A stretch of DNA of 64,000 bases. Source: a virus. Shown one piece after another: positions 119 through 62,073 of the stretch. Within the stretch, counting starts at the first letter, position 1. Every line of letters starts with the position of its first letter. The notes under the pieces were generated by a model that saw only the letters and a list, made by a program, of their open reading frames with translations, searched no databases and had not been told where the DNA came from. Both the position numbers and the translations under genes were made by a program. The stretch lies in the IMG/VR virus record IMGVR_UViG_3300045988_095709, positions 33,509-97,508 of that record; one strand, given 5' to 3'.

Positions 119-3100
119 ATGATAAATTCAAATTGTGCTTTAGATTGCATGAATGTCGCTACTGATATTAAAATAGCGGGTATGATGGGATAGTTAGTAC
201 AGCACGAATCTGACAATGACATTCATGTGACAAAAGAAGAAAAAGAAAAATTAAAAAGTATTACAAACGATTCTGAAGATAATTCTGATCTTACAGAAAT
301 AAAATTAACTTTGAACAATAAAGCCGATAAAGACGAAATACCGACAAAGTTGTCATAGTTAGAAAACGATACTAATTTTATTTCTTCTATTCCAGATTTC
401 TATACTACTGAAGAAGAGGTAAAATTATTAATCGAAGGTTATCTTGAGGGTTACGACGGATCTGGTGGATCTGGAGGTGCTTCTGATGAAGATATAAAAA
501 GATTAGAACAACTTATAAAAGATCTTACTACACTCGTAAACAACAATACTACAGATATAGAGAGTATAAAAAAGACACTTGAAGAACATTCTGAAAGTAT
601 AACTAATATAGAACAGTTAATAGATACTCTCGAATAGTCTATAAGTAACATAAATCAACAGATAGAATAGATAAATGTTAAAATAGACAACATCGAAGGC
701 GGTGGATCTGGCGGATCTTATGTTCTTCCGATAGCTTCTGCGACATAGCTTGGAGGAATAAAAGTAGGATTGGGATTGAGTATTGATGGTTCAGGAGTGT
801 TATCTACTACCGGAGAAGGTGGTGGCGGAGGTTCTGATTTATCTTAGATATTAGAACAGATAAAAGGAATGTTCATATCTAAAACACAAGAAGACAGTAC
901 TGATTACTTATTGACACTAAATGACGGTCTTGTAGTAAAAAAGAACGATATTGACGATTTTTGTGTGTAGACAGATATTGTAAGAGATGCTGGATTCTTT
1001 AGTGGACTCTTCGGATCAGGTTATTCACTTTCTAGTGATTCGTCAGATAGTCTTAGTAATTTTAGTTCTGATGGTTCTTTATTGGAAATAGATAATCTTC
1101 TTGTTAGAAGAAAAGCTATGTTCCAGGAATTAGAGATAAGAAAAGTATCAGCAATAGGTGGAACTCTTGTTTTATCTAACGCTAGTGGTACTATAATAAA
1201 TACTACAGATAAGGGTGGTGGTATAATAAGATGTTATTTAAAAGCCGATGACGGTACTACTAGAACTTAGAATTTATTCCAACCTCAAGATTATGTAAGA
1301 TGTCAGACGTTTAATATACAAGCTGGAATATATAGTGATGTAAAAAATAAATCATACTGCCTTGCTGTATAGGATGTTGGTTCCGACGAAGCTTTGGGAT
1401 CAAACGAACCTATGAACTATATAGATGTTATATATCAATCTGGAGATAAGCCGGAGGCTGGAGATGTAATCGTACAGTACGGATGTCAGCCTGGAGGTGA
1501 CGAATCTAGAAAGAATCTTATAGAGTTATCAACATCTGACGTAGATGCACCTTGTATGAAGATGTACACAGGAGTAGAAGGAATGCATAGTTTAGAGGAT
1601 CATGTTCAGTCTATAATAAGTCCGGAACTTGTAGAATTCACCACAGATGTGTTTAGAATAAGAAGCGGCGGTAATTCATATCCTATAGCAATAGACAGAG
1701 GAAAGTATGATCAGTATACTACATACTACTATTATGATCGCGTAAGCTACGAAGGAAGTTTGTGGTTGTGTATTTATCAGGGAGAAGAAGGCGTTACTGG
1801 AGTAGAACCATCTTTTGAAAATTCAGAATATTGGGAACTTTAGGTGTCTAAAGGAGACAAAGGAGATCAAGGAGAATCTCAAGACGGAAATGATATTTAT
1901 TCTATGTCATTAGATCAAGATGTATTCTTATCGTTATACGATTCTGAAACTAGAAAATGGTCTCCAGATATAAGGACATCTTCTATAAATATAAACGTAT
2001 ATAAAAACAACGAGCTTGTAACTACAAAAGACGTACCTTATACTGCAAGTATAATAGAAACAAACGGTGATTGGACTCCTAGTGCAAGTGTTACTGAAGA
2101 TGCTTCGTCTTATTATATAACAGCATCTGATGTTAGATTGACAAATGGAACAGCAGATTGTACTGTATAGGTATCTATTACTGATACTAATGTAAAACTT
2201 AAGAGAAAATTCACACTCATAGTATCAGAAAAGCCTACGTACGATTATGACGAAAACGGATATACTGTGTTTATATCTCCTTCTAATTTAGAATTACCTG
2301 TAAAATATGAAACAGAAGATAAATAGATAACGGTATCTAACGATCCTACACATCCTATAAAAATAACAGTACCTGTTGTAAAATCAATAACTACGGATTT
2401 ATCTAAGAAGATAAACGTTATGATATTCAAAGGAAGTAAAGTTATAACAAATCCCTAGATAAATATAAAAAGTTCTGTAAATTTAGATTCGATGGATTAT
2501 GAAGGATGGTTTGGAGTTGGCCATTTATATAAAACCACATATACAGAAAACGATACTTATTAGATAAGTATATACGAAGTCCCAACTTCTACTGTATATT
2601 GGCTTCCTGAAAACTTTACAGACGGAGAAGCAGTAGCGTTCCCAGTAACAAGTATGAACATAAACATTGCTCCCCAATACGACGGAGTTCCTTCTACTGA
2701 CGTACCAGTAAATGTAAATCTGGACGGAAATGGTAGTATATGGGAAGTTACTGGAACTAGATTTACAAGTACTTTCACTGCTATAAATAATATGAATATT
2801 AACTATTCATCTATAGAATAGACTGCTGATCATATACAATCTGTAGTTGGACAATATCTTGTAGACGAAAACGGTGATTATACTGAAACGTTTACACAAG
2901 CAATGTAGACTGCTACTAGTGTAGAAATTGGAGCATATCAGGACGGTTTGGCTGCATGTGGTCTTATAGTGTCTTTGGAAAGAGGAGGAGATGGAAATTA
3001 TACTTCTACAGATGGTGTTGTAAAAGTATACGGAAACAAATTCCAAGTATACGATAGAGATTTGCGTAATATAATGTTTACAGTAGACGACTCTGGTTAT

Positions 3101-3847
3101 ACTACTGTTAGAAATCTTAAAGCAGAAAATGCATATGTTTCTGGAGAAGTTATAGCAACAAAGGGATCTGTAGGAGCATTCTCTATACAAGATGATAATC
3201 TTACATCTAGTAAAAACGGAACTGTAGAATTAACATCCAATGGATTAAAGATTGTATCTCCAACACAATCTAGTGGAGTTGAAGATAGTTATATAGCATT
3301 TAATACTGTAAACTAGAAATAGGGAGAAAGTACACTATATAATTCTGCAGCTTATATTCACAATCACGGAAAAGAATCAGGATAGAATTATGCAGCATTA
3401 TACGTAAGCTGCGACGGTTTTGGAAAAAAATATGGAATATTTAACGAATCTACGACAAATACTAACGGACTGGTAAACAATGGTGTACTTGTAAACAACC
3501 TATGTCCAGTAACAACCACAATGAATTTGGATGCGTATCCATTTAGTAAATTCATACATTACGGTTCTTCTACGTGTACATTGAACTTACCAACAAATCC
3601 TGCAGACGGAATGGATATAGAATTTATAGTAACAAATCCTGACGGAAAATTAAACATAAATACTACAAACTCTAATACAATATTATATATAAAAGACAAT
3701 ATTGCAGGAAGTGTAAACAACGTGAATTCGTATACTACAGGTGGTGCTGGTATATGGAGATTGATATTCCTAGGACAGACACAACAATTAGGACCTAGTA
3801 CTTAGGCGTGGTTTGCATTTAGAATTACAGATAATTACACAGCATAA
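119..3847 (+). CDS. Long tail fibre protein (1242 codons, TAG read as sense)
   Basis: This frame is open to TAA 3845-3847. I checked it codon by codon and only TAG interrupts it, first at 191-193. The first ATG is 119, with alternatives at 149 and 182. A heptad-rich coiled-coil segment (~480-700) is flanked by GGSGGSGG-type linkers. The fibre motif SYVLPIASAT-x-LGGIKVG (716-769) is shared with the fibres at 21261 and 23288. There is also a short G-X-Y run, GDKGDQGES (1853-1879). Confidence 0.75.
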
Positions 3848-3849
3848 TA

Positions 3850-4368: not shown

Positions 4369-4378
4369 TATTTAAATT

Positions 4379-6442
4379 ATGGTAAACTTTAATTAGAAAT
4401 TTCATAATACAGATAAATTCAGACAAGCAGCTTTATATTTTATGGAGCACGGAACATATACTAGTGCGCCTCCTGGTACTACTGATTACGTAGCGTATTG
4501 GGATAGAGAAACAGAAAGATGTATTAATGGATTTACTGCAGAAGACGGGGAGTATATTACTGGATACCATTATTTTTATTTGAACTACTCCCCTATATAT
4601 ACAATAAAAGCTGAACAATATACAGATAGAGGAGGAAATAAAAGAACAAGACGTATTCGTTCTTTGTCGTTCCCTTCTTTTTGGGATTATGATGCGTACT
4701 ATTATTATACAATTGAAGCCGCCGAAGATGTTGGAAAACATTTAGCTGTACTCAAATGTAGAAAGAGAGGTTATAGTTTTAAAGGAGCTTCAATGTTAGT
4801 ACGTAATTATGAATTGATACCTGGATCAAAGAACTTCGCTGTAGCTTCTGAGCAGAAGTATTTGATCGGTGACGGATTACTTACTAAAGCGTGGGCTATC
4901 ATGGACTTTTGTGATAGAAACACGGCTTGGGCAAAACAGCGTCTAAAATCTACGAGTATGGAAAGAACATCCGGATTCAAAATAAAAGACGAATTCGGAA
5001 AAGAAACAGAAGATGGATACATGTCCAGTATAATAGGAATAACTCTTAAGAATGATGCAGAAAGAATAAGAGGTACTCGTGGAAAATTAATATTATGGGA
5101 AGAGGCTGGAAAATTTGCAGATATAAAAGAAGCATGGTCTATAGCAAGATCTTCTCTAGAATCGGATGATGGAGTGGCTTTCGGAACACAAATAGCATTT
5201 GGTACTGGTGGTACTGAAGGAGTTGACTTCGAAGGTTTGAAAGATATGTTTTTTCATCCGGATTCTTATAATATATATTCGTAGCCAAACATATGGGATG
5301 ATAACGCAGAAGAAACAAATTGTGGATTCTTCTGTCCGCAATGGTCTAATATGGAGGGTTTCGATGAAAAAGGAAATTAGATGTTTATGGATAAAGACGG
5401 AAACTCGTTGAGAGAACTATCCATAAAAGAATGTGTAAAACAAAGAAAAGAAGTACAAGACGGTAGAGGAGATCAATAGTTATTAGATAGATTTATAGCG
5501 GAAAGACCGCTAAAACCAGCAGAAGCTGTATTGGAACTTGGTGGAAATATATTCCCTAGAAAACAATTATTAGATCAACTTAATAGACTAAGAACAAATA
5601 TAAAACTATAGAATATGAAACATGTGGTTGATCTATCATGGGATGGAGACGGAAAAGTAAAAGCCACAGAGAAAAAATCTGGAGATATTACAACATATCC
5701 GCTAAAGTCTGGAGAAAAACCAGAAGGCTCTGTTGTAATATGGGAATATCCAATAATAAATCCACCATACGGATTATATATAGCAGGGTTAGACCCTTAC
5801 GATTAGAATGAATCTGGAACAAATTCTCTAGGATCTATAATAATATATAAAAGATTCAAAGCGGGAGAAGCTTGGACAGATACTATAGTTGCAGAATATT
5901 CCGGAAGACCCGGAACTGCAGATGAATATTACGAAAATGTTCGTAAGTTATTAATATTTTATAATGCGAGATGTTTGTATGAAAATGAAAAAATAGGAAT
6001 ATATCAACATTTCGTAAATAAACATTGTGATTATTTATTAGCCGATCAACCAGATAAAGTCATAGCTCAGATATTTAGAGATTCTAGAGTTAATAGAAAA
6101 AAAGGATGTCACATGACAAAACAGGTAAGATAGTTTGCCGAGGAAAAAATAAATGAATGGTTAAGAGAAGAATACGCTCCAGGACATCCTAATTTAGAAA
6201 GAATATATAGTGAACCGTTATTAGAAGAATTAATAATGACGAACGGAGAAAGAAACGTTGACCGAGTTATTGCTTTATGTATGGTAATGATATATAGAGA
6301 AGAATTATATCAATTAAAAGTATCTGAGGCTAAATAGTAGAATAAACAAGTCGAACTGTTCGATTTACCATTGTTTGGTACTTAGTGGTGGAATGACGAT
6401 AGTAAATCAGAAGACGACGGTATACCGATATTTCAATTTTAA
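4379..6442 (+). CDS. terL: Terminase large subunit
   Basis: One frame runs from ATG 4379 (alternative ATG 4442) to TAA 6440-6442 with 10 in-frame TAG, 9 of them downstream of 4442. Motifs seen are a P-loop-like KCRKRGYSFKGAS, a Walker-B-like KLILWEEAG, and an acidic nuclease-domain motif LYIAGLDPYD. The size is typical for TerL and the portal gene follows. Confidence 0.9.
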
Positions 6443-6444
6443 TT

Positions 6445-8940
6445 ATGATAGAAGATAATTTGTATAACTCCAGATTTCCATAGCAAAAATTACCATTATC
6501 TAAAAAGAACAAGAAATGGCAAACAGATTGCGTAAATTATATAATCGGAGAAGGAAATATAGTTTCTGGTGCACAATCAAAAACAGAATTTGGCGAATTA
6601 TAGACTTATTATAATCTTTACAATAGTATTTTCGACGAAAAAGATTTCAAGAAAATAACAAATCCGTTTAAAGTAGAAGATGGATTTCCTGCTACACCAC
6701 AAGATTTTAATATAATAAGACCTAAAATAGATTTGCTAATTGGAGAAGAAACAAAAAGACCATTCAACTTTACTGTTACTAGAACATCATAGGAATCAGC
6801 TTCAGAGTTGATGGATAAACAAAAATAGTTAGTGTTGCAGTATGCTATGTCTTTCTTTAATTCACAACTTGGTCCAGAAGAACAGCAATAGTTCCAAGAA
6901 CAAATAGCAAATGGAGAAGTAATGCCTCCTGAGCAAATTGCTAAGTATATGGACAAAGACTTTAAAGATGTTGTTGAAAACACAGCATATCATACTATAA
7001 TGTACTTAAGAAAAAAGTTATCTACGGATAACGAATTCATAAAAGGATGGAAAGACGCACTTATCGGTGGTAGAGAAATTTATTACGTAGGAGTATTAAA
7101 TTCTGAACCGTTTTTAGAGCGTGTAAATCCTATGTAGTTATCTTTCGACAAGAGTCCTGATCTAGAATACATAGAAGACGGATCTTGGTGTTGTAGGAAA
7201 ATGAGACTTCCTATAGCAGAAGTGTACGATAGATACTACGATAAATTAACAGAAAAAGATTTAAATAAATTAGAAGAAATGATGAATGCTGTACCTGCAA
7301 ACAATATTGGTGAGCATAATCCTGTTGACGACTTCAAAGGAATATAGTTTCATTTCTATGACAATCCTTTATATGATGAAAAAAATAGTCATTGTATAAA
7401 CGTATGGCATTGTTGTTGGAAGTCTTTTAAAAAGATATTCTATGTTACTACTGTTGACGAAACAGGACAGACTCAAATAGATATTGTAGACGAAACTTAT
7501 CAAAAGACTGGTACAGAAATAAGTGTTGAACCTGATTGGGTAATAGAAGTTTGGGAAGGATACAGAGCGTCTAACGATTTATATTTTGGAATATAGCCGT
7601 TAGAATATCAGCATATAAGTATAGATAATCCTAACAGTTAGAAATTACCTTATTGTGGCGCAATATATAGTAATACTAATAGTAAACCACGTTCATTGGT
7701 TAGCATATTAAAACCATTACAATATATGTATATTGTACTTTGGTACAGGTTAGAGTTAGCTTTAGCTAGAGATAAAGGAAAAGTCGTAAACATGGATATA
7801 ACATAGATACCTAAATCTATGAATATAACTCCCGATCGATGGCTTCATTATTTATCTAGTGTCGGTGTTAACTTCATAAATCCTTACGAAGAAGGTTGGA
7901 ATATAGCTGGTCGAGAAGGTGGAAAACCGGCAACTTATAATCAAATAACGGCATTGGATCTTACAATGAGTAATGTAATAGCTGAGTATATTCAACTCAT
8001 GGATAAGATAGAACAACTAGCCGGAACTATTTCAGGAATTACTGAACAAAGACAAGGAGCAATTTCTACTTCAGAATTAGTAGGAAATGTTGAACGAAGT
8101 GTTATACAATCTTCACATATAACTGAGCCTTTATTCTGGACTCACAATTAGGTAAAGAAACACGCGTTAACTATGCTTCTAAATACAGCAAAAGGTGTAT
8201 GGTAGGATTTAGGAAAAACAAAACTACAATACATATTTGACAACGGAGAAAGAGCTTTTATAAATATACCTGAAAAATTCTATTATGAAGATATAGATAT
8301 ATTTATGAGCGATACTTCAAAAGACGCAGAAAACATACAAAAACTACAAAGTCTTATACAGCCAGCTATGCAAAATGGTGCATCGTTGTTAGAGGCTGCA
8401 GAAGTTCTTACTAATGATAACTTTAATATAATCAAACAGAAACTTAAAGATATGCAAACTAGACAAGAACAGATGCAACAACAACAGCAGCAGGCAGAAA
8501 CTGAAAGAGCTGAAAAGATTCAACAAATGCAGAATCAAGCAAAAGAACAAGAACTTATGCTTAAAGAAGCAGAGATGGATCTGGAAAGATATAAGATCGA
8601 TTAGGATAATGCTACTAAAATAGCTGTAGCCGAAATTAGTACTTATAGAGGTAGTGAAGATAAGGATATAGATATGAATGGAATATCTGATCCTATAGAA
8701 ATAGCCAAAGATGCTACTGCTCAAATGAAAATACGTGAGGATCAGTATACTAAGAGATACGAAACCGAACAGAAGAAAGAAATAGAACAGTAGAAGATAA
8801 AATTAGCAAGAGAGCAAATGAATCACGAAACTGAGCTTTAGAAATTAAAAGATAAAGCAGCAATGGAACGTGAATAGTTAAAAGCAAGGACCGCATTAAA
8901 AAATAAAACAAATGCAGAAGCTGCTAAAAGTAAAAATTAA
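6445..8940 (+). CDS. Portal protein (831 codons)
   Basis: ATG 6445 lies 2 nt after the TerL stop. I read frame 1 line by line to TAA 8938-8940 and found 16 in-frame TAG and no TAA or TGA. The call rests on size, the position immediately after TerL, and a Q/E/K-rich coiled-coil C-terminus (8440-8930). Confidence 0.7.
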
Positions 8941-8965
8941 TTAATAATTTAAAAATTTTAGTATT

Positions 8966-9040
8966 ATGGCATGTGGAAACAAAAAGAGCTCATCTAAGAA
9001 GTCTTCTGGAAGCAAGACTAGCTCTGGAAAAAAGAAGTAA
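8966..9040 (+). CDS. 24-codon Lys/Ser-rich micro-ORF (MACGNKKSSSKKSSGSKTSSGKKK)
   Basis: It runs from ATG 8966 to TAA 9038-9040 in the 102-nt gap between the portal gene and the next gene. Six of its 8 Lys codons are AAG, the codon choice of the MCP-type high-expression genes and unlike the AAA-rich bulk of the block. Confidence 0.35.
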   Translation: MACGNKKSSSKKSSGSKTSSGKKK

Positions 9041-20751: not shown

Positions 20752-20801
20752 TTATGAATTTTTTAGATAAAACAGGTCTCCAATATTTTTGGGGAAAAAT
20801 A
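20750..20801 (+). repeat. Conserved fibre-gene junction, copy 1
   Basis: AATTATGAATTTTTTAGATAA (20750-20770) and TATTTTTGGGGAAAAATA (20784-20801) are identical to 21843-21863 and 21877-21894. Confidence 0.8.
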
Positions 20802-21842: not shown

Positions 21843-21894
21843 AATTATGAATTTTTTAGATAAGACCGGACTTTAGTATTTTTGGGGAAAAATA
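21843..21894 (+). repeat. Conserved fibre-gene junction, copy 2
   Basis: It contains the same 21-mer and 18-mer as copy 1, spanning the start codon and first 16 codons of the next fibre gene. Confidence 0.8.
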
Positions 21895-28620: not shown

Positions 28621-28621
28621 T

Positions 28622-49600: not shown

Positions 49601-52600
49601 ATCTTACTACATAGTTGTTCCAATCTATAAAATCTCAAAAGTTAGATTATAACTTCTTGTATATAAGATCTGTAGTTGACGATAACGGAAAAGTTATAAA
49701 CGGAAATTATTTATATTCTTACCATCCTACCAACTACGATAGATCGCAGCAACAATATCCAATACAATGGTTTGATAACTTACGTTCTTCTTTCAGCGGA
49801 TTATTTACTAAGTCTGGAGATCTTAATAAGAATTTTACAAACTTTAAAGACTCTAAAAAATATCTTTCTGAATTGTATAACGCGTTAACGTTGGCGAAAG
49901 CTAATAACGGAAAGATTACAATAAACAAAGTAAATTACGACTTGACAAAAGGATCTGACTTAAGCGTTGTTATATCGTAGTTTGTAAAAAGTATGAGAAA
50001 CATAGGCGTAGATATAGATACCAATATGGTTCAATATTTACTACAACAGATGAACCCTGATGAACCTATGTTATACTTGGCATTCGTAGATTTAATAACT
50101 AAGGGAGGAAATAATAGTGTATACAGTATATTATAGCTTATAAAAGATAACGGTATTCTAGACTTAATGCAAAATAGGCTAGAGGCTGGAGACATATCTT
50201 TCTTTACAAAAGATCAACCTAAAAACAATAGAATACACGATAGTATAAATACCGGATCGTATGTTTATACTAAGAGTGGCTTCTTAACGTTATTGGCAAT
50301 GTGGCAAGGAAAATTTAGAACATCTACTACAGAACTTATGACAATAGGTCCTGAAAACACAAAGATGTATACTTTTGCTCAAAACCATACAGCTTCGGAT
50401 ACTATATACGATCTTAATAATTCTTATGACGAAAACGGAAATCTTGTAAAAGGATGTACACTTGAAGAGTTAAGTTAGGTGGATTATGTATTAGCTAGAG
50501 ATCAGCAAGGTAATAGAATAGGATCTATTATAGGAAAAACTCTTATGAATAAATATTGGAATCCTAATCATAATAAATTACAACTGAGAACTTCTGCTGG
50601 AACTAAATCTTCTACTTATTCTGACGAAGGATCTAAGTATTCTAAGACTACTTCTAGAGAAGACTATATGGCTAAAGTACAGATGTTGTTATAGGGAGAT
50701 ATAATATTCCCGGCATTGTCTGATAAATCTACATATTTCTCTATAAGCGGAATAAAACTTCCAGGACTTAATTTCGATAACAGTTCTTCATCGATAGGAA
50801 GTCTTCCGGTATTTAACTCAAACACTGGAACAATGATGTTTATACACAATGTGATGGAGAATTCTGATGATAAGATAAGAAGTATTGAGGATAATCCGAA
50901 AAGCGGATATAGATATAACGACGTTCTTGATTAGTTTATAGAATATTTTACTTGTGAAAATATAAATGTAAACAAAACTATAAACGACTTAGGATTGTAG
51001 GAATAGAACGCAACAAATACTCCGATATCAGAAAATCAGAAAATTACAAACTATCACAAAGGAAGTATAAATGGTGCAAGATATTTGAGTTTGATGGGAA
51101 TATACGCATTAGAAGATATGGAAATAAAGATAAACGGAAAAACTAAATCTTATAAAAAGGGAGATTATATACCGTTTAACTTTAAAGCAAATACTCCTAG
51201 TGAAGGTATACTTGAAGGAAGAAATCTTGCTCAGTCTCTTTTCTTTGACCAACCTATAGAAAAACAAAGAGTGATAGTAGCTGAAATATTAAGAAGAAGA
51301 CTTGATGATACGTTGAACGACTTGTTAGAAATGGGAATAATAAGCAAAAACGACAATGCTTCTAAAGCAAAAGGTATTGTTACTCATGATTATTATTCTT
51401 ATAAAAATAATTATTTTGACGTAGATAAGATAAACAGATTAGCTAGGTGTTATTCTAACATAGAAGGAATACAAACTTTCGGAAATTCTGCATTAGAGTC
51501 TTTAGGTGTAGTAGCGATGGCGTACGATATAATGTGTAAGAGTATGATGTCTATGGAAGAAACAAGACGTTTCTTTACGGGAATGCCTCAGTTCTTTAAA
51601 ACAAAATATTCTTCAGAAGGAAATTTAGTAGATTATGGAACAGACGAAACTAAACGTTACGGAGGTGAAGGTTCTACTGGTTCTAATAACCGTGAAGACA
51701 TGGCTAATATACCAGAAGAGTATACTTGTGCAGAGCTAAAAGATTGGGAAATTTCGTCTGCTATAAGCGAATCTTTGGAACAGGCTTTCAAAGAAGGAGA
51801 ATATAGAGAGTCGTTATCTGTATACTATAGCGAAAATCCATCGTTAGGTAAACCTTCCGACGCTTATAATATGTCTATAGAAGACGTAGAAAAAGAATTA
51901 GAAAAAACAGGAATGTTAGAAATGATTGACATGAAGATAAAAAAAGAATCTAATTCTTATAAAAGCGAAATAAACGTTACAGACGGTACTGCTTACATAA
52001 CAGATACTATGGCAGAAAATCTGTTAAGAATGCGAGGAGCGTTTAATAACGAAATAGCAGAAGCGTTTGAAAGACTGAGAGGCGATAAAGGATACCTAAA
52101 TAGTGCACAAGATTATAAACTTATACACGAAGCACTTATAAGTACATAGAAATATTCTGCTTTCGGATACAGAATGCAAAACGGAATACCGGTACACTTC
52201 TACGATAAGTTCGCATTGTTCCCAATGTTCAAAGGAATATCTTTCGGATTTAGTAGAGATCTTTATGATAAGATGCGTAAAGAGGGTGTAGATATGGTAA
52301 TGTTTAATTCTGCTGTAAAATCTGGATCTTAGGGTGCGTAGAAGTTCTCTCCTGATATGACAAAAGAAGATTTATAGAAGTTTACATTTAAAAACAATAT
52401 CTATAAACAAAAGTATAAGTACATAAGAAGGCAGTTGAATACAGATCCTAGAACTGATGAAGTAATGGCTGCAGGAACACAGGCTATGAAGGTTTCTCTC
52501 AGTGTACTTAGAGATTGGCAAACATATTCTATACAAAATCCTGACGGAACGGAACAAACTTTGAATAAAAACGAAGTATTGAGTGCTATAATGGACAGGA

Positions 52601-55600
52601 TGAACAGAATGGCTGAAATAGGAAGTCAGTAGATAAAAGAAGAATTCTTTACCAACGGAAAGCTAGATTACGCAAAATTAAAAGATTTCATAGTAAGAGA
52701 ACTTTCTAGTAGAAATGCCGATAAGAATATACTTGAAGCTGTCAATTTGGATTATCTTACTGACGAGAACGGAAATATAATTCCGGAAAGCGTACATTTT
52801 GTTACTGACATAAACGTAGTTTCTAATATGGCATGGATAGAAAGTATATTGATATCACATATAAATAAAAAAGTAATAGATATTAATTTTAAAGGAAATG
52901 CTTTCTATCAGAGATCCGTGTTTGGTCTTGATAGCCCTACTGTATTAAACGACGATTAGGTAAAATACGAAATGAATGGTGGTAAACCTCTGCAGATGAT
53001 AAATGAAGAGGGAAGTATGGACGCAGTAATAAGTATAGACTACTTTATGGATATTATACCTAAGAAATATAGATATAATTTCAAAAAAGCAAAACAATGG
53101 TTGATTGACAACGATATTATATCTGGTATAAAAACAGGAACAAAAGAGTGGAATAATGCTAAAGCTAGTGTGTTATCATACCGTATTCCTACTCAGGCGG
53201 CATCTTCTATTCACGCGTTAAGATTTGTAGACGTATTACCAATCGTTAGAGATACTATAATACTACCTAGAGAGTTTACTAAGATTACTGGTTCTGACTT
53301 CGATATTGATAAATTGTATTTATCGTCTTTCTATTATAATGTAAACAAAGAAACCGGAAAGTCATCTTTGATAATGGACGACGAATATGAAAATACAGCA
53401 AATCAACTTCTTTCTATATATCTTTCTTTGATTAAAGATGCTGGAAAACAAGTTACAGACGGAAAAATATCTAAGTCTAGATACATGCATATATTGAACA
53501 GATCTATTGATAACGATACAGAGTTGATAACCAATGTTCTTTCTGATATAGAATCTGGAAAAACTAAAAAGACCGTAGAGCCATATCAATTTGAAAATCT
53601 AACCAATCAAGTAAAGATAAAACAATCATTTGCTACAGGTAAACTCGGAATAGGACCGTTTGCGTTGAATAACAACAATCAGGTACTTACTATGTTGTAC
53701 AACGTTTCTTTCAAAGATTTTGGAGACAACGATAAAAGTTTATTAACTTATATCGGAATGAACAGGTTAGATAGGATTACAGATATAAACGGAAACCATA
53801 TATTATCGTGGATATCTGCGATGATAAACGCACACGTGGACGTTGCGAAGGATCCGTATATATTAAGATTAAATGTAAATAAATTTACATATAATCTAGT
53901 AAATCTACTTATACGTTGTGGTCTAGGAGATAGAGCTTTATATTTCATCAACAACCCTATAATAAAAGATTTAGCTAGAATAAGTGAAGAAACGCAAGGA
54001 AGAATAGTTGATGAACCGGAAATAAGCGTAAGAAAAAGGTTTGAAAACGCTTAGGAACAGTATATACGTGACTGTAAGTTTAGAGATGAGTCTTTTTCTA
54101 AGTTGTATATGAAAGCTAAGGACGAAGAAAAAAGAGCTGCTGAAAAGAAAGATTTTGATAAAATCGCAGAAATAATGGGAATGGATAGAGACGGTCTTCC
54201 AATAAATAGTATTAAAATATTTAAAGACGGTCAGTATTATACTGTTGATGGTACATATATAATGAGAGACATTTTAAAAAATAAAGACGTACTCATAGAT
54301 GAAAACAAACCGTTAAGTATGGATAATCTTAGAGACGACGATCAGTTTTATTACGTGTTGGAAGGTGATAGAAGAGTTACTCCAAAAGAAGTTTAGATGT
54401 ATATATTCTTAGCTATGCAAAATTTAAACATAAATGCAGCGGCTCTTTCTGCAGTAGTACAGGCTACTAAAGTAGACACTAAAAAGCACGGTAAAACTGT
54501 AAGAGAACAATCAGAATATAATGCTAAATACGAATAGTTATTAAGAGGTGGTATATCTAACATGTTTGAAAATTTGGATAACATGTTGACAAAATCTTAT
54601 ATAAACGTTAAAACTAATCTCGGAATAGGTATTCCTAAGAAAATTCTTTAGGAGTTTTCTATAACAGCTACAGACAATTTTAGATACGTAGTGGATTCTA
54701 TATGCTCTATGTACTTAAACAACTAGACTTCTAAAACTAAAACATCGATACAGAATGCTGTTCTCGCATACGTTAAACAGATTGCTATGAATAAAGCTAT
54801 GGAAGATAACGGAATAACTAGCGAAAAGTGGATGGAGATGATACAAGGAAGAAAAACGTTAGCACAGAGAATAACAAACCTTCAGAACATATTGATTTCG
54901 GATGTAGATGGTAAATATAAATCTTTAGCTACTAACGGAACAATAATAAATCCATTACTTGCTAATTTGCGAAGAATTCCATATCAACCACAATACGGAC
55001 AGGTTCACTACGATCTTATAGGGTTAGAAAACAAAGGAGCTGACGATAGTGAATTGAGTAATAACTATATTGATGCATGGTAGCAACTTTTAGATTATGA
55101 TGATCCTCAATATCCAAAAGAGTCTGAAGCTATAAGGAAGCTAGCTAGCGATCTTGCTGTTTATGCGTTTGTGACATCTTCTGATACTAAAGGAACAAAT
55201 AAATTTTTCAAATATGTTCCTGTTTCTTGGAGAAATGATTTTGGGTATTCAGAGTATATAAGATAGGCTTTTTAGTACTTTAAAGACGGAAACGTAAAAG
55301 TACAAGAAGATGCTGAAGATGGATTTTTAACTATAGATCCGTACGAATTAATAATGAATAACTATATGGATCCTAATATTCTACCTACACATAAGATGAA
55401 TAAGTTTATGGGATCTTCTTATCAGTATAGTGAAACGGATTTCTAGGGAAAGATTATAACAAGTAATATATACACAATGATTGCAGGTCTTGTTAACGAT
55501 AGACCTACAATGTATAAATCTGAATACATTACACAATATCCTCCTTTTGTCAGAATACAAAGACCAAATACCAATAGATTTTCTGCAGATTAGTATTTGT

Positions 55601-56760
55601 TGTATAGACTTGCTGCTTACGGTACTAAAACGTTATCTGACGGTAAACAGGTATCTTATCCTGTATATATACTTTTAAATCCTAAAGGTCAGAGAGTTAA
55701 AATAGGTGCTCAAAATTATGATTTCTATTCTGTAGGAAGAGACGATAATTATCAGCACGATTTCTTAAAAGGTGAAACTCCAAACTTCTTAGAAAAAGTA
55801 AAATGGATATAGAAAAACATAGAAAAAATACAGGAGTTGAGAGCAGCTAAAACAGCAACAGTAGGAGACGTGAGATAGTTGTTCGACATACCGGCAGGAG
55901 ATAGTTATTCTATACAAACGTTCGGAAATATATAGAGAACAGTATATCAAAATGAAAAATACGGAAATATAGGAGAAGCTGAAATACAACACGACTAGTT
56001 ACAATTAGAGCTCGGACCATATGGTGAATGGGAAATAAAAGGCGATAATACTTCTAAATTTGATACAAACAAAGCATTAGATACATACACATTGCATTCT
56101 GGTGGAGCAAAAGGTTCAGACTCTTACTGGGGAACAGCAGGAGAGAAATACGGCTTATTGTACGACGATAAACACCAAAGACACTATTATCACCAAGAAA
56201 AAACTCCTGTAGGAAATGTAGAAATATCTAATTAGGATTACGAAGAAGGAAGATACAAGGCAGCATAGGCTGCTTCAGCAAGATGGGGATATAACTTGAA
56301 AACAATGAAAGATAATAGATTGATTAGAAATTGGGCTCAGGTTAAATATTCAGATGCAATATTTGCAATAGGAACTCTTGTTAAACCCGGACAACCGATA
56401 GATCCAAACAACAATAAAGAAACAAGAATTGCTAAGAAAGTAATAGTTTCTGGAGGTACCGGATATGCTGTAGAGATGGCTATACAAGCTGGTAAACCTG
56501 TATACGTATTCGATTAGAGGAGAAACAGATGGTATAAGAACATAGACGGAAAATGGTCTAAATCAGATATTCCTGTACTTACTAAAAATTTCGCAGGTAT
56601 CGGAACTAGAGAGTTATAGGATAACGGAAAATAGGCTATAGAAGACGTATATAAAAAGACTATAGAATAGATGTAGAAGAACTCTACTAATTAGGATATC
56701 GATATCAATATAGAAGATTTCAGTAATCTAAACGAATAGAGACATGAACAATGTGATTAA
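40642..56760 (+). CDS. Giant multidomain virion protein (5372 codons) containing an RNA-polymerase-type DxDxD motif
   Basis: I read frame 1 codon by codon across every gap between 25 same-frame track ORFs, from ATG 40642 to TAA 56758-56760. TAG was the only stop. The last upstream in-frame stop is TAA 40609-40611. Embedded signatures are annotated separately below. Confidence 0.8.
45304..45930 (+). other. PD-(D/E)XK (RecB/Cas4-type) nuclease domain inside the giant protein
   Basis: The sequence ...GETDMLAVDTDGSVYLIDFKTSK... (D-F-K at 45736-45744) is followed by ...RTQFTLYSMM..., which fits the QxxxY motif typical of RecB-family nucleases. Confidence 0.55.
48100..48310 (+). other. Candidate zincin metallopeptidase motif inside the giant protein
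   Basis: HESFH (48175-48189) fits HExxH. It is followed 35 residues later by EALAD, which fits the ExxxD third-ligand motif of gluzincins. Confidence 0.4.
52972..54054 (+). other. Putative catalytic region of a crAss-type virion RNA polymerase
   Basis: The motif ..TKITGSDFDIDKLY.. places DFDID at 53296-53310. This DxDxD metal-binding motif is analogous to NADFDGD of multisubunit RNAP beta-prime, and lies within a very large virion-module protein as in crAss-like phages. Confidence 0.55.
56092..56514 (+). other. SLOG / DprA / DUF2493-like Rossmannoid domain at the C-terminus of the giant protein
   Basis: The signatures are LHSGGAKGSDSYWG ... NRLIRNWAQVKYSDAIFAIG ... VSGGTGYAVEMAIQAGKPVYVFD. 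These fit the GGAxGxD and GGTxxxxxxA..GKPV pattern. Confidence 0.45.
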
Positions 56761-56772: not shown

Positions 56773-59700
56773 ATGGTATGTATAATAGAGAGTAAATATT
56801 AGAAAGAAATAGAAGATCTTACTGGTATAATTGGAGACAGGGAGACTGCTATATCACTATTATGCGCAAATAACGGGTTCACCTTAGACAAAACACCCTA
56901 GGGTGAACCGTCAGATTTGTATCAATAGTTATTAGGACAGTTCTCAAACGACGAAGCAGGAAGAAGACGTGCTATTATATACAAAGCTAGAACGTTCGGA
57001 AGTTCTTTCGTTAATAAGTATGGAAAATGGTTTGAATAGGACGCATAGTCGTAGAATAACAATTTTGACTCTAACGGTGAACCTGTTTTAAGTATAGTAC
57101 TTGGTGATAAAAATTTGTTTCAAAATAGTACGGAGTAGGATTTTTCACAACTTAAGAGAGAGTATGTCAGTCGTTTAGTAAACGAACTTCTTTTTGAAAA
57201 CCCAAACGCTAGTCAAATAGAAATACTAAACAAAGAAATAGAAGCACAGCAAGAGTGGGCTAATCAATAGGCTAATCAGTTGGACGAAGATGTTGAAATG
57301 TCCAGAATAGACGCAGAAGATACAAAAAGACTATTGAAAAACGAGAACATATTGATTGGGAAGGCTAGTAAATCTGTAATATAGATGTTTAGAAAAGCAA
57401 AAGAAAGAGCTAAAAAACTTAGAGAAAATCTAAACATAAAAAGTCTAAATCTGAAAGATGACTTATCAAACAAAATAGACGAGACAGCCAACCAGATAAT
57501 ATCTGCAACTATAAGTAAGGAAAAGGCTTATAAATCTAAAAACTTCTCTTCTTCTACTTCTTATGGAGATATAAACTAGTAGATATAGAACTAGGAAAAT
57601 TCTAGAAAAATACGTGGATATAGAAAAAGTATAATAGAAGCACAAAATAGTAAAAATGCAAAGAAAGAATTAGATGCAAAACTTGAAATGTTCTTGTATT
57701 TTATAGAAAATGCATCTGACGAAATAAATAAAATATTATCAATGCTTCTTAATGCTGAGGCTAATGAGTATAAAAAGATATATTATAAAGTAGATAGCGT
57801 TGGAAATATAATATACAACGATGAAAACAATAAATATTACACCGAACAAAACGAAAAAGAAGGTGTACAATACGGTACGTTTGATTTTAACGACCTTCAG
57901 TATATAAACACTGATGTTATTGGATTTTACGACGGTGTACTACATAATATATTATTGATATTAGACTAGCTTGACGAAAATGATCCGAAAGTTAAATTGC
58001 TTAAAGACTCCATAAGAATTTCAGATGTATGCAATAATATATTTTCAGCTAAAAGAAAGTATCAGATAGCTCTAGAAAATAAAGTAATGGATATGGTCAG
58101 AGAAGGTCTTGACGAAATTCCAGAAGAAAGACTAGACTCTGAAATGAAAGCAAGATTGATAGTAAGAACTAAAAAATGGCTTAGAAATCAGTACGATTTT
58201 GGTGATGTTACTGTATTCGAAAGAGTTATAGGAATAGGAAGTAGATCTAAAAGTTCACTGATAAGACTTATTCAGGAAGTAATAAACTAGATAGAAAACG
58301 AAATACGTATAGAAACAAGTAAGAAAGGTTTTAAATTAAATGATCTATACAGAAAAGCGTTAAATAAAAACAAAAAATATATGCTTCCCGGTATGAGTTT
58401 GCAGTAGTTACTGATGGGTAAAGACAGAAACGGTTTACCAAACGGAGATTTCGTAAGACCTATAAATTACAGACAGTATCAACAAGATTTAGAGAACATT
58501 TAGGCTGAATTACTATTTGGAAAAGATGGTATTAGAGACCGAATTGCAAATCTAAAAGACGATAGTGGTAATTATATATTCAGATATCCAGATACGAACA
58601 CTTACGAAATAGAATTTGATGAACACGGAGAACCAATATTACCAAATCATCCAAAACTAGAACAAGCATATAAGAATTACTATAAGAAACTGGAGTCTTG
58701 GAAATGCGATCATTCTGAAAGACCGTATACTAAAAAATATTATATTGAAAGGTTGGATCATTTGTCTATATCTACTATACAAATGATGAATAAGTTGTAT
58801 AGTGGAAGAAACGAGATAATACAAGCTGCTACAGTAGACGGATAGTTCAGACCTGATAAACTTTCTGATTTCTAGTTAGACGAGCTGAATAGATACAATC
58901 AAGAAATACAACAGTTGTCCAGTCCTTTTTATATTGACGGAACAGAAAAAGATCCTTACACTCCAGAAGGAATTGCAGCTAGAGAGATAAGTAGTTGGCA
59001 AAATACAATATCTGACCACATAAAATATAAGACTAGTATTGAAAAGTACAATCAAGCATTATCTTTTGCGAAAGATAAGAAAAAATTTGCTAGATTGTTC
59101 AGTAAGTGGATAATAAATCCTAAATTATACGAATGGTTGGATGATGATTTTCAGATGAATAATTCGTACGTCAAATCTCTTAAAAAGACCATTAATAAAC
59201 TTATGGCTCCGTACAAAACAGATAAAATCGGAGAAGTCAAATGGGATATGCTTTTTGATTTTGAAACTGGAAAAATCAAAAATGAGAAATGGTTTGAAAG
59301 TATGATTGAAGTTTCTAAAAGATATAGTGAAGAAATATCTTTATAGTATAAAGATTATTCTAACGAAGATGATAACGGTGGTACAAAATATAATGAACTA
59401 ATAGACGAGGTGTATGTACCAAAACCAGGATTTCAGTACGATTTTTCATATACTTATGAAAACTCTATGCTTAAATACATGAAAGATGCGTATTAGAATT
59501 ACTTGGTAGAAAACAAAGGTTATAGTACACAACAGGCTAGTTCTATCGCTGCGAATACATTTTCGTATACTTATATGACAGCAAAGGGTAAACTTATAAG
59601 TAAACCTATTTCAATATTTATGATGCGCGTTCCTAAAGAAAAGAAACAATTTAAAGGTATAGATGGAAATTATTACAAATCTTTTATAAGAACGCCTTCT

Positions 59701-62073
59701 TCTATGTTTTCAGAGATAGATTTAGAAAACTCTTCTAGTGATTATATAAATAAAAATTACGATAGACAGTCAGATTAGACTTTACAACCAAAAGAGTCTA
59801 TATATAGAGATGAAAACTATTATAAATATATAGAAGGAAAGAAAGAGATGAAAGAATTGTACGATGAATTAATTAGTACAATGGAACAATCTTTTTAGAA
59901 CTATCCTTTTGTGAAGAAATATGATTATAGATTGCCACAGAGAGGAGAAACAAGAAATTCATCTATACTTTCTAGAAATCTATTGACAAGATTGGGTGTA
60001 AACGTAGGAGAAGTTTTAGATAGAACTCTGTCTGTAAACGAAAACGATTTGGATATAAATTTCCAAGAATAGGTATTACGACCAGATGGAACACCTATTA
60101 AAAATATACCAATAAGGTGGATAAGAAGACTTAGTAAACCTGAGTATATATCTTCAGATATAATAGGTTCTGTTACTTTAATGTATGGAATGTCTGTAAA
60201 CTATAAATTAAAAAATCAAAAAGTTTCTCAAGTAGAGTCTATTTTAAACTATATAAGAAGTAACGATCCTAGTAGTTCTTCAAAATAGGCAGAAGCTATA
60301 CAAGGAATGATAGATAGACAATTCTATGAAGAACAGACATCTGGACTGAAAGTAAATCCGACGCCAGAATAGTGGAAACATGCTGATTGGTTTAGAAGAT
60401 ATTTCTGGAGTGCTAAATCATGGTTGAAAAAAGTAGGACAAATAAGAGGTATCGCATAGTTAGGTATGTTGGCATTCAACTTAGGTTCTGGTATAGTTTC
60501 GTCTTTAGACGCTACTACTAGTATGGTTATAGACGTTCTTACTGGAAAATATATAAACTATAAAGACTTATCTTATGCATTCAGCCAGTTAATGTTTGAT
60601 TTACCTAAAGCTATAAACAGCTTAGGTAAAATAAAAACCGATAGTGATATATGCGCTCAGATGTAGTATTTTGGACTAGCAAAAGGAAACGCTCAGACGT
60701 TTAGAAACACCGATTATAGTAAACTGAGAAGATTTTTATCTGACGGATTACTTATGAAACAATTTGCAATAGGCGATTATACAATCAACGCTTTAAATAT
60801 GACATCTGTACTATATAATTATAGATTGTATGTAGATTAGGATGGAAAACGTCAACTATTAAATAAACCTGACTTCATAAGAAAGGCTATAAACGACGGA
60901 ATGACATATAAACAAGCCAAAAGTGCTTATAATTCCGCAAAGATAGCAAAACGTTTCCTTAAACGTGGAAAAGACGGCATGATTACTGTAGATAAAGAGT
61001 TTGAAAAGGATATGTACAGAATAGGACAGTAGATAAGAAGTAGATCGTCAATATACAACGGTGTTATAAATGATGCTGAACGTACATATTTCCAATCTAA
61101 TGTGTGGTTGTCTTTGATATCAATGCTTCGTAATTTCTTTATAGTAGGTATTTGGGAAAGATTTTAGACTTATCGAGATTTTCAAATGAGTGTCGAATAG
61201 ACTTTTGATCCTGAAACAGGAGAGATACTAAACGAATACGGAGGAGAAAATTTAAATCCTCAACAAGCTGCCAATATAAAGAAAGAATAGAGATATTATG
61301 CAGGAGGGTACAACTTCGATACCGGACAGATAGAAAACGGAACAACATTATCGTTCTTTAGATACTTATCTAAACTATATCCTTATCTTAAGTATTCAAC
61401 AGACGTAATATTCTCAGGAATGAGTAAGTACGATCCACAAAGAGAGTAGTACTTAAAAAATAACAATCTAAACGCGTAGGAAATATACGGAGCTTAGAAA
61501 ATAACTATGGAATTTACAGCAGCGATGTTATTTATATTAGCCAGTGCAAGTATATATAGAATAGCTAAAACAAAAGATCCAGATGACGATGATGCTTATT
61601 TGTGGTATCTTATCAACTATGTTATGGTTCGTCTCCCTATCGAAAGATTTACGTGGATGTCGTTAGATACAGTGAATGACCTTATAAATTCTATCACAGC
61701 AGCTTCTTCTGATTTAAAACGAAAAGGACATTTGATAGATATGGTTATGGAAGCGTTAGGATTAAGTAAGCACAAACTCACTGACGAAATGCCTTCAAAC
61801 AGTCAATATGCAGGTCAACAGCGATGGTTTTATCATCTTTGCAACATCGGTTCTAGTTTTGGTTTGCATAACTACTATGTTAATATGCCTAAAGCGTTAG
61901 GTGGAGGAGGAGCTAAACCTTTGATGCGTAAAGCATATTTCTATTATGATAAATTACCATTTGGTAATTATATTTACGATAGAGGTAAAAAGACAGACAA
62001 AGTAGATAAAAGAAAAAAGAATGTCGGAGTTTCTGTTATTAGCGATGACAGTAATGACGGATTTGATAGATGA
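56773..62073 (+). CDS. Second giant virion protein (1766 codons), function unknown
   Basis: I read frame 1 codon by codon from ATG 56773 to TGA 62071-62073 and only TAG interrupts it, first at codon 10. The C-terminal third has hydrophobic segments (60466-60560, 61507-61575). Confidence 0.75.

What the first reader, a model, noticed from the sequence alone, without database searches (positions are those of the whole stretch)
119..62073. In-frame TAG is a sense codon, most likely Gln, throughout the 62-kb plus-strand late block
Under the standard code the plus strand breaks into dozens of short ORFs. Every break is TAG and the reading frame never changes. I read frame 1 codon by codon from ATG 40642 to TAA 56758-56760 and from ATG 56773 to TGA 62071-62073 and met only TAG. 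TerL has 10 in-frame TAG, the portal 16, and the fibre 21847-22959 has 14 in 370 codons. With read-through, all 35 plus-strand genes end in TAA or TGA with tight junctions such as ATGA overlaps.

Four observations point to Gln:
- The paralogous fibre N-termini MNFLDKTGL-Q-YFWGKI use CAA at 20781-20783 but TAG at 21874-21876.
- The paralogues ..SSEQVYDDTFE.. and ..DTQ(TAG)IYDSTFE.. use CAA at 20611-20613 and TAG at 18771-18773.
- In the GH24 endolysin, TAG 28853-28855 occupies the Gln of the family motif Q-(F/Y)-D-A-L.
- TAGs are interleaved with CAA and CAG in Gln-rich tracts (40756-40839, 44890-44928).

TAG-to-Gln recoding has been reported for some crAss-like and other gut phages, so the phenomenon is not new. 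It still determines every annotation here.
Basis: partly seen in the sequence, partly recalled or inferred. Interest (0 to 1): 0.85.

Follow-up and report, generated by a model that had tools for sequence, protein, structure and literature searches.

The report
TAG read as glutamine, crAss-like phage
This window is the late-gene block of a gut crAss-like phage that reads the stop codon TAG as glutamine; that is a known habit of this phage family, but the tRNA gene that should do the reading is itself split by a roughly 1-kb intron-like insert.

Summary
With TAG read through, the plus strand from 119 to 62073 resolves into 33 long ORFs, or 34 with a 48-codon one. They span 20,397 codons with 326 in-frame TAG and no in-frame TAA or TGA, and all end in TAA or TGA.

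Glutamine is supported by four neutral tests:
- homologue alignments,
- strain polymorphism,
- two paralogue pairs,
- the GH24 motif.

The window is a Crassvirales (Suoliviridae, Oafivirinae-like) late block. TAG-to-Gln recoding of late genes is already published for this family and validated by proteomics, so this is a new member of a known kind.

One refinement: TAG is not reassigned genome-wide. Two of the three complete early genes at 62142-63911 (minus strand) end in TAG, one exactly at a homologue's stop.

One addition: the tRNA(CUA) gene of this genome lies 0.8-1.8 kb upstream of the window and escapes tRNA finders. A 972-nt insert carrying an HNH endonuclease ORF splits it inside the anticodon. 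The insert has a covariation-supported, group-I-like core. I found the same arrangement in 25 other viral contigs and one complete genome. Splicing is untested.

The parts
1..118 (+). Leader of the late block. The window begins 21 nt after a tRNA-Gly. The split tRNA(CUA) gene of the same genome lies outside the window, at window-relative -1823..-1789 (exon 1) and -816..-779 (exon 2).
   Evidence: L007 (ENA ERZ28599333 scaffold_17) is 100% identical to window 1-16442, and window position 1 equals L007 5623. tRNA positions come.
119..62073 (+). TAG-recoded late (structural, lysis and virion-transcription) gene block: 33-34 ORFs, 326 in-frame TAG, no in-frame TAA or TGA.
119..3847 (+). 1,242-aa fibre-like protein, 20 TAG.
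   Evidence: The public gene call has the same length.
4379..6442 (+). Large terminase, 10 TAG.
   Evidence: 68% aa identity to cr124_1 TerL; annotation.
6445..8940 (+). Portal, 16 TAG.
   Evidence: 74% aa identity to cr124_1 portal.
11723..13243 (+). Major capsid protein, 0 TAG against 17 CAA/CAG (TAG avoided, p = 0.002).
   Evidence: PF23898 Crass_capsid.
16313..17371 (+). 352-aa virion protein with 0 TAG.
18690..20486 (+). Head-fibre protein (PF25641), 15 TAG. Its N-terminus is paralogous to 20530-20751, with TAG 18771 opposite CAA 20611.
20754..21833 (+). Fibre paralogue A (PF11133), with CAA at 20781.
21847..22959 (+). Fibre paralogue B, with TAG at 21874. It has 14 TAG against 5 CAA/CAG, the most TAG-rich gene (p = 1.6e-4).
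25586..26434 (+). GT2 glycosyltransferase, 1 TAG.
   Evidence: PF00535, E = 2.5e-34.
28550..29056 (+). GH24 lysozyme (true start probably 28622), 6 TAG. TAG 28853 falls on the family's invariant Gln.
   Evidence: PF00959, E = 8e-38; PDB alignments.
29061..29585 (+). Holin, 1 TAG.
   Evidence: PF05105.
29536..30183 (+). Lysis-regulator-like membrane protein, 8 TAG against 5 CAA/CAG.
   Evidence: tblastn match to the crAss001 gp27 region and to cr124_1.
32198..37000 (+). 1,600-aa virion structural protein, 23 TAG.
   Evidence: Matches cr124_1 gp13 'virion structural protein' and phi14:2 gp082.
40642..56760 (+). 5,372-aa giant virion protein, 104 TAG. It includes segments similar to crAss001 gp47 and gp50, which are annotated as putative RNA polymerase.
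56773..62073 (+). 1,766-aa protein, 36 TAG, the last gene of the block.
62134..62178 (.). 20-bp hairpin terminator between the convergent late and early blocks.
62142..62660 (-). Early-block gene, 172 aa, no internal TAG. It ends in TAG, used as a stop.
62668..63699 (-). PD-(D/E)XK-like exonuclease, 343 aa. It ends in TAG exactly where the cr124_1 orthologue ends in TGA.
   Evidence: PF12684.
63708..63911 (-). Early-block gene, 67 aa, ending in TAA.

Best explanation
The window is the late-gene block of a crAss-like phage (Crassvirales, Suoliviridae, near Oafivirinae). In this block UAG is translated as glutamine.

Shown here:
- Every plus-strand gene from 119 to 62073 is open only if TAG is read through.
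- TAG behaves as a third Gln codon, making up 31% of TAG+CAA+CAG.
- The early genes at the window's end still use TAG as a stop.
- The same genome carries a tRNA gene with a CUA anticodon at the head of the late block, about 1.8 kb upstream of the first TAG-containing gene. The genes just before it, and the dUTPase gene after it, are TAG-free.

Inferred, not shown:
- Early genes are translated with the host's standard code. Once the phage tRNA(CUA) accumulates and is charged, probably by host GlnRS, the TAG-laden structural, lysis and virion-packaged proteins can be completed. The code switch would then act as a timer, as in the published model.
- In this genome the tRNA gene is interrupted between U35 and A36 by a 972-nt element that encodes a TAG-free HNH endonuclease and has a group-I-like RNA core. 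That element must be removed, most likely by self-splicing, before the suppressor can work.
For: Frames:
- 326 in-frame TAG and 0 in-frame TAA or TGA in 20,397 codons.
- Independent assemblies carry the same genes, and public gene calls have identical read-through lengths.

Gln identity:
- Log-likelihood is +106.5 for Gln and -112.7 for Lys over 161 TAG columns.
- CAA is the commonest aligned codon (94), and it is two mutations away from TAG. Trp (TGG), one transition away, is never seen.
- Reciprocal enrichment is 86 per 1000 for Gln against at most 16 per 1000 for any other residue.
- Among 97-99% identical strains, CAG changes to TAG 19 times and to CAA 18 times.
- The GH24 invariant Q aligns with TAG in 4 of 4 solved structures.
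- Both paralogue pairs are confirmed.

Block-wise use:
- The exonuclease's TAG stop aligns with the relative's TGA stop.
- In cr124_1 the early genes have no internal TAG, or TAG only within the last few codons.

tRNA:
- tRNA(CUA) is present in cr124_1, cr114_1 and cr56_1, one from each of three Suoliviridae subfamilies. In cr114_1 and cr56_1 it sits immediately upstream of TerL; in cr124_1 it sits about 7.5 kb upstream of TerL.
- An intact copy exists in a 97%-identical strain, L009 4797-4869.
- Both halves are 100% conserved in the window's own genome.

Literature:
- TAG-to-Gln in delta-group crAss-like phages, mostly in late genes (PMC7886860).
- Proteomic proof in two crAss-like phages (PMC9523058).
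- The timing model (bioRxiv 10.1101/2021.08.26.457843).
Against: - There are no peptide data for this genome.
- The four distant, standard-code genomes (100 cells) do not discriminate Gln from Thr, Arg or Lys.
- The relatives used are phylogenetically related, so cell counts overstate independent events.
- The suppressor gene in this genome is interrupted, and splicing is unproven: Rfam's group I model does not match it, no P1/internal guide pairing was found, and 7 of 20 variants of the element end in A rather than G.
- tRNA sequence similarity does not identify the isotype.
- About 28 kb of this genome was not seen, so another tRNA(CUA), or a factor that counters release factor 1, cannot be excluded or confirmed.
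- 104 TAG in one ORF demands very efficient decoding, and how competition from RF1 is avoided is unknown.
Confidence: 0.93

Rival explanations
1. TAG is decoded, but as an amino acid other than Gln (for example Lys, Glu, Tyr, Trp or pyrrolysine).
For: ARAGORN labels every CUA tRNA 'tRNA-Pyl', but from the anticodon alone. Lys is the second commonest aligned residue. In two of the nine Suoliviridae loci compared, cr56_1 and cr109_1, Lys scores marginally above Gln.
Against: Gln beats Lys by 219 nats overall. Trp is never aligned, and Tyr and Leu are rare. Among close strains TAG exchanges with CAG at the rate of a synonymous change. The invariant Q of GH24 aligns with TAG. Proteomics in related phages found Gln (PMC9523058). 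No pyl genes were seen in the window or in the annotated relative cr124_1.
Confidence: 0.03
2. TAG is an ordinary stop. The block would then be a field of short ORFs or pseudogenes, or an assembly artefact.
For: Under the standard code the strand does break into 61 ORFs of at least 100 aa. Two GenBank records of relatives are annotated that way: Dulem virus 42 with 222 features and Bohxovirus PV686213 with 168 hypothetical proteins.
Against: There is no in-frame TAA or TGA in 20,397 codons, against 3,062 in the off frames. Full-length homology to TerL, portal and tail proteins runs across the TAGs. The same sequence is recovered in many independent assemblies.
Confidence: 0.01
3. TAG is read as Gln, but not by the phage's own split tRNA. 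The 972-nt insert would have inactivated that gene, and decoding would rely on a host suppressor, near-cognate reading by host tRNA-Gln, or another factor encoded in the unseen 28 kb.
For: - Rfam's group I model gives no hit.
- No P1 pairing was found.
- 7 of 20 variants lack the terminal G.
- Published surveys report many recoded phages without a detectable suppressor: only 40% of TAG-recoded genomes had one (bioRxiv 10.1101/2021.08.26.457843; PMC7886860).
Against: - Both tRNA halves remain 100% identical to the intact allele of a 97% relative.
- In about 20 diverged contigs, joining the halves in silico restores an ARAGORN-valid tRNA(CUA) although the tRNA bodies differ. The halves are therefore under selection.
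- The insert's 3' core is 99.4% base-paired, with 13 compensatory pairs.
- The complete Bohxovirus genome has no other CUA tRNA.
Confidence: 0.15

Closest known systems
TAG-to-Gln ('code 15') late-gene recoding in crAss-like phages of the delta group / Suoliviridae. Example: cr124_1 NC_055899. Sources: Yutin et al. 2021 (PMC7886860); Borges et al. (bioRxiv 10.1101/2021.08.26.457843); Peters et al. 2022 (PMC9523058).
   Same: Same order and family, and the same gene order (TerL, portal, MCP, and so on through to the giant virion proteins). In-frame TAG is confined largely to late genes, while early genes use the standard code. A tRNA(CUA) sits at the head of the late block. The MCP is TAG-free in both this window and cr124_1.
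   Different: Only about 73% nt identity over TerL to MCP to the nearest reference record. Here the tRNA(CUA) gene is split by a 972-nt insert, whereas in cr124_1, cr114_1 and cr56_1 it is continuous.
Group I introns in bacterial and organellar tRNA genes, such as the cyanobacterial and plastid tRNA-Leu(UAA) intron and the proteobacterial tRNA-Ile and tRNA-Arg introns. This comparison rests on my own knowledge and was not tested against those sequences.
   Same: Insertion in the anticodon loop directly after a U. A P3-P8 core with a P3/P7 pseudoknot. A P7 with a bulged A and G-C pair, and J8/7 to P7' motifs (CAGACUAAA … AAUAGUCGG) that resemble the classical core. A homing-endonuclease ORF is present.
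   Different: The host gene is a phage amber-suppressor tRNA. The ORF fills almost the whole intron and overlaps the ribozyme core. No P1 was identified. The terminal nucleotide is A in a third of variants. Rfam RF00028 does not match.
HNH-ORF-bearing group I introns in the structural genes of related Suoliviridae (the MCP genes of cr131_1 and Dulem virus 42).
   Same: Same phage family. An HNH ORF whose 3' end overlaps the ribozyme core.
   Different: Those introns give sub-threshold RF00028 hits (27-32 bits), which the tRNA insert does not. There is no detectable sequence similarity between the cores or between the HNH proteins.

Membership tests
Phage with TAG-to-Gln (code 15) late-gene recoding | Conserved late genes are intact only if TAG is read through; no other in-frame stops | tested here: met
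   326 TAG and 0 TAA or TGA in 20,397 codons.
Phage with TAG-to-Gln (code 15) late-gene recoding | TAG columns align with Gln in homologues | tested here: met
   Log-likelihood is +106.5 for Gln against -112.7 for Lys. Supported by strain polymorphism and the GH24 motif. Distant families alone are inconclusive.
Phage with TAG-to-Gln (code 15) late-gene recoding | Phage-encoded suppressor tRNA with a CUA anticodon | tested here: inconclusive
   There is none in the window. The same genome has one 0.8-1.8 kb upstream, but it is split by a 972-nt insert. An intact allele exists in a 97% relative. Splicing is untested.
Phage with TAG-to-Gln (code 15) late-gene recoding | Early and replication genes use the standard code, with TAG as a stop | tested here: met
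   Two of three early genes in the window end in TAG, one at the orthologous stop. Eight of the nine called genes within 5.6 kb upstream have no internal TAG. The exception is L007 114-629, with 7 TAG.
Phage with TAG-to-Gln (code 15) late-gene recoding | Peptides spanning TAG with Gln | not testable with these tools
   Demonstrated only for other crAss-like phages (PMC9523058).
Crassvirales / Suoliviridae | Crass-type MCP, TerL and portal, with the conserved late-gene order | tested here: met
   PF23898 Crass_capsid, PF25710 and PF25641. MCP is 82-89% identical to Oafivirinae members. The block is collinear with cr124_1.
Group I self-splicing intron (the insert in the tRNA gene, outside the window) | 5' exon ends in U; intron ends in G | tested here: inconclusive
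   U35 precedes the insert in all variants. The last nucleotide is G in this genome and in 12 of 20 variants, and A in 7.
Group I self-splicing intron (the insert in the tRNA gene, outside the window) | Conserved P3-P8 core with a P3/P7 pseudoknot and a G-binding P7 | tested here: met
   40 pairs, 99.4% of cells paired, 13 pairs with compensatory changes, 0 of 500 shuffles reach this, and slid controls are 31-47% paired. I drew the structure by hand from these same sequences, which favours it in the slid control.
Group I self-splicing intron (the insert in the tRNA gene, outside the window) | P1 helix between the 5' exon and an internal guide sequence | tested here: not met
   No conserved complementary segment was found.
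Group I self-splicing intron (the insert in the tRNA gene, outside the window) | Match to Rfam RF00028 | tested here: not met
   No hit at E <= 1 over 2.7 kb or at E <= 10 over 287 nt. The model does find the MCP introns of relatives at 27-32 bits.
Group I self-splicing intron (the insert in the tRNA gene, outside the window) | GTP-dependent self-splicing | not testable with these tools
   Needs in vitro transcription or RNA-seq.
HNH homing endonuclease (the ORF inside the insert) | HNH motif; intact ORF across variants | tested here: met
   PF01844 at 23.5 bits, above the 21.4-bit cut-off. The ORF is 298-304 aa, has 0 TAG and ends in TGA in all 14 variants examined.

The most novel reading that the evidence does not exclude
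A family of amber-suppressor tRNA(CUA) genes in TAG-recoding gut phages is interrupted inside the anticodon (U35|A36) by a roughly 1-kb, HNH-encoding, group-I-like intron. These genes are invisible to tRNA finders. This would explain part of the long-noted 'missing suppressor tRNA' in recoded phages. It would also make the phage's switch of genetic code depend on an RNA-splicing step.
Probability: 0.5. Interest if true: 0.7.

Novelty: new member of a known kind. Interest (0 to 1): 0.4.

Why it matters
For annotation, the effect is decisive. Under the standard code, two GenBank relatives are deposited as 168 and 222 mostly tiny, largely hypothetical genes, whereas read-through gives 33-34 recognisable late genes here.

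Biologically, the recoding itself adds nothing new. TAG-to-Gln in late genes of delta-group crAss-like phages is published and backed by proteomics.

What could matter is the split suppressor gene. Surveys detect a suppressor tRNA in only about 40% of TAG-recoded phages, and they invoke host suppressors or 'non-canonical' tRNAs to explain the rest. An intron-split tRNA(CUA), found here in 4 of the 5 close strains examined, in 25 IMG/VR contigs, and as the only CUA tRNA in a complete Bohxovirus genome, is a concrete and testable explanation.

Tried and rejected
- Locating the source contig by exact DNA match in IMG/VR found nothing.
- Look-ups of the early genes by exact protein failed. As a result, about 28 kb of the genome stayed unseen.
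- Homologues from the protein database were not used for the residue test. The 120 listed are all at least 70% identical, and they were evidently called with TAG read through, which would make the test circular. I used DNA of annotated genomes instead.
- Isotype assignment of the tRNA by BLAST against phage tRNAs gave mixed Gln, Arg, Trp and Lys neighbours.
- Rfam searches for a group I intron in the insert were negative.
- Searches for an internal guide sequence (P1) were negative.
- The insert's core and its HNH protein show no similarity to the MCP introns or to the free-standing homing endonucleases next to the tRNA(CUA) in cr114_1, cr56_1 and cr109_1.
- Literature searches for an intron in a phage suppressor tRNA found nothing in the held library.

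Full report
**1. The observation**

With TAA and TGA as the only stops, the plus strand becomes almost fully coding. ORFs of at least 100 aa cover 21,101 of about 21,333 possible codons, against 10,362 under the standard code; making TGA the sense codon instead gives 10,951.

- Thirty-three ORFs of 73 to 5,372 aa tile 119-62073. Junctions are tight, including two ATGA overlaps.
- Together they hold 20,397 codons with 326 in-frame TAG and no in-frame TAA or TGA. They end in TAA 25 times and TGA 8 times. The two off frames of the same genes carry 2,037 TAA and 1,025 TGA.
- I count 33 genes, plus one 48-codon ORF with 5 TAG at 26436-26582.

**2. What the window is**

It is the late block of a crAss-like phage.

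- The MCP carries Pfam Crass_capsid, and neighbouring genes carry crAss ring and head-fibre families.
- TerL to MCP is about 73% identical in DNA to cr124_1, which is classified in Suoliviridae, Oafivirinae. The proteins are collinear with cr124_1 from TerL to the giant virion proteins.
- The 5,372-aa ORF contains segments similar to crAss001 gp47 and gp50, which are annotated as putative RNA polymerase.
- A GH24 lysozyme, a holin and a GT2 glycosyltransferase were confirmed.
- After a 20-bp hairpin terminator at 62134-62178, the window ends in the convergent early block on the minus strand.

**3. Which amino acid TAG encodes**

To avoid circularity I did not use database proteins. The public gene calls for this lineage already read through TAG. 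Instead I translated the 33 genes with TAG as X and aligned them by tblastn to DNA of 12 annotated crAss-like genomes (13 loci).

Across 161 distinct TAG columns and 805 cells:

| Aligned residue | Cells |
|---|---|
| Q | 135 (CAA 94, CAG 41) |
| K | 91 |
| TAG in the relative | 87 |
| E | 56 |
| N | 45 |
| W | 0 |

- Scoring each candidate residue with substitution tables taken from the same alignments gives Gln +106.5 nats, Lys -112.7 and Glu -173.7.
- CAA is two mutations away from TAG, and TGG is one transition away. Mutational proximity therefore does not explain the pattern.
- In the reverse direction, TAG codons of the relatives align with window Gln at 86 per 1000, against at most 16 per 1000 for any other residue.
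- Among strains 97-99% identical to the window, CAG codons differ as TAG 19 times and as CAA 18 times. TAG never differs as TGG, TAA or TAT.
- TAG 28853 aligns with the Q of TQNQFDAL in all four best solved GH24 lysozymes.

Limits: the relatives are not independent of one another. The four distant standard-code genomes alone (100 cells) do not discriminate, because TAG sits mainly at variable positions.

**4. TAG is not reassigned everywhere**

- Two of the three complete minus-strand genes at the window's end terminate in TAG.
- For the PD-(D/E)XK-like exonuclease (62668-63699), that TAG aligns exactly with the TGA stop of the cr124_1 orthologue.
- In cr124_1, early genes have no internal TAG, or TAG only in the last few codons of read-through annotations.
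- Within the late block, TAG makes up 31% of TAG+CAA+CAG. It is avoided in the MCP (0 of 17), in 10543-11694 (2 of 32) and in 26763-27551 (1 of 25). It is enriched in fibre 21847-22959 (14 of 19).

All of this matches the published picture of late-gene recoding (PMC7886860; bioRxiv 10.1101/2021.08.26.457843; PMC9523058).

**5. The decoder**

The window has no tRNA. Relatives from three Suoliviridae subfamilies carry a tRNA(CUA) upstream of the late genes. RefSeq annotates it as tRNA-Gln.

- A public scaffold, L007, is 100% identical to window 1-16442 and extends 5.6 kb upstream. ARAGORN finds only tRNA-Met and tRNA-Gly there.
- A 97% relative, L009, has an intact tRNA(CUA) in the equivalent position.
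- Aligning the two shows that in the window's genome the tRNA gene is split exactly between U35 and A36 by 972 nt. Both halves are 100% conserved.
- The insert encodes a 298-aa HNH endonuclease (PF01844) with no TAG and a TGA stop.

**6. Nature of the insert**

*How widespread it is*
- Four of the five close strains examined carry it.
- A scan of IMG/VR for a 23-nt core motif found 25 contigs. In each, a tRNA 3' half follows the motif.
- Joining the flanks in silico restores an ARAGORN-valid tRNA(CUA) in about 20 of them, although the tRNA bodies differ.
- The ORF is intact, TAG-free and ends in TGA in all 14 variants examined.

*RNA structure*
- The last 140 nt or so fold into a hand-drawn group-I-like core (P2 to P8, with a P3/P7 pseudoknot). 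Its P7 and J8/7 look like the classical group I core to me; this rests on memory.
- On 20 distinct sequences the 40 pairs are 99.4% paired, and 13 pairs show compensatory changes. None of 500 shuffles reaches this, and slid controls are 31-47% paired.

*Evidence against a canonical group I intron*
- Rfam RF00028 gives no hit, although it does detect the MCP introns of relatives at 27-32 bits.
- No P1/internal guide pairing was found.
- The last nucleotide is G in this genome and in 12 of 20 variants, but A in 7.

*A complete genome*
- The complete Bohxovirus genome PV686213 has only such a split copy, of the A-ending type, and no other CUA tRNA.

*Literature*
- I found no report of an intron in a phage suppressor tRNA in the held library.
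- Several papers note recoded crAss-like phages without a detectable suppressor (PMC7886860; bioRxiv 10.64898/2026.08.21.746148).

**7. Verdict**

The finding is correct and its interpretation is supported. The phenomenon is already known, so the window is a new member of a known kind.

The added value is twofold. First, TAG plays a dual role within the window itself: sense in the late block, stop in the early genes. Second, just outside the window lies an intron-split suppressor tRNA gene, which deserves an experimental test.

Noticed in passing
L007 3799-4843 (same genome as the window; window-relative -1823 to -779): The tRNA(CUA) gene is split between U35 and A36 by a 972-nt insert. The insert has a 298-aa TAG-free HNH ORF and a covariation-supported group-I-like core. 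tRNA finders miss the gene. The same family occurs in 25 IMG/VR contigs.
   Followed up: yes
Alignment A1; L016, L042, L044, L045, L048, L049, L051; PV686213 65192-66242: In 7 of 20 variants the insert ends in A instead of the G expected of a group I intron, while the P7 G-binding pair is invariant. The complete Bohxovirus genome has only such an A-ending copy and no other CUA tRNA. This is unexplained.
   Followed up: partly
L007 114-629 (-); cr124_1 (L001) 44749-45219 (-): A small gene on the opposite (early-side) strand carries 7 in-frame TAG in 171 codons in L007, and 6 in 156 codons in cr124_1. Recoding is therefore not strictly confined to the plus-strand late block.
   Followed up: no
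window 11723-13243, 10543-11694, 26763-27551 versus 21847-22959: TAG use is uneven. It is avoided in the MCP (0 of 17 Gln codons) and in two other genes, and it makes up 74% of Gln codons in one fibre paralogue. In the MCP, Gln is nearly all CAG (16 of 17).
   Followed up: partly
PP511876.1 (L035); PV686213.1 (L063, L064): Two GenBank relatives are annotated with the standard code and so appear as 222 and 168 mostly tiny genes, largely 'hypothetical'. Terminase, portal and capsid are each cut into several pieces.
   Followed up: no
P0033-P0076 (TerL homologues of 1,041-1,060 aa): Close relatives' TerL proteins are about 360 aa longer and carry LAGLIDADG and intein-splicing Pfam domains. Inteins therefore interrupt TerL in sister lineages but not here.
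   Followed up: no
L034 12331-13198; L035 7947-8801 and 9342-10157: The MCP genes of cr131_1 and Dulem virus 42 are interrupted by one and two endonuclease-bearing introns respectively (an annotated HNH endonuclease in cr131_1). These give sub-threshold Rfam group I hits (27-32 bits), and the ribozyme core overlaps the ORF's 3' end. The window's MCP is uninterrupted.
   Followed up: partly
L010 3400-4451; L011 46443-47337; L036 3315-4050: In cr114_1, cr56_1 and cr109_1 an intact tRNA(CUA) is followed within about 25 nt by a free-standing homing-endonuclease gene. These three endonucleases are homologous to one another but not to the intron's HNH protein. These tRNAs have a UGGGG…CCCCA acceptor stem, as in E. 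coli tRNA-Gln.
   Followed up: partly
window 9043-10485 versus L004, L006, L008, L009: The gene between portal and 10543 is a strain-variable cassette. It is 480 aa here, and is replaced by proteins of 555 to 974 aa (one with a weak HD-domain hit) or by two genes in 97-99% identical strains.
   Followed up: no
L001 34357-34713 (cr124_1): The relative encodes a tmRNA, which is striking in a phage that reassigns a stop codon. I could not check whether the window's genome has one.
   Followed up: no
window 26436-26582: An unlisted 48-codon ORF with 5 in-frame TAG fills part of the only large intergenic gap of the late block (26435-26762).
   Followed up: no
window 62134-62178: A perfect 20-bp hairpin with flanking T and A runs lies between the convergent late and early blocks. 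It is probably a bidirectional terminator.
   Followed up: partly
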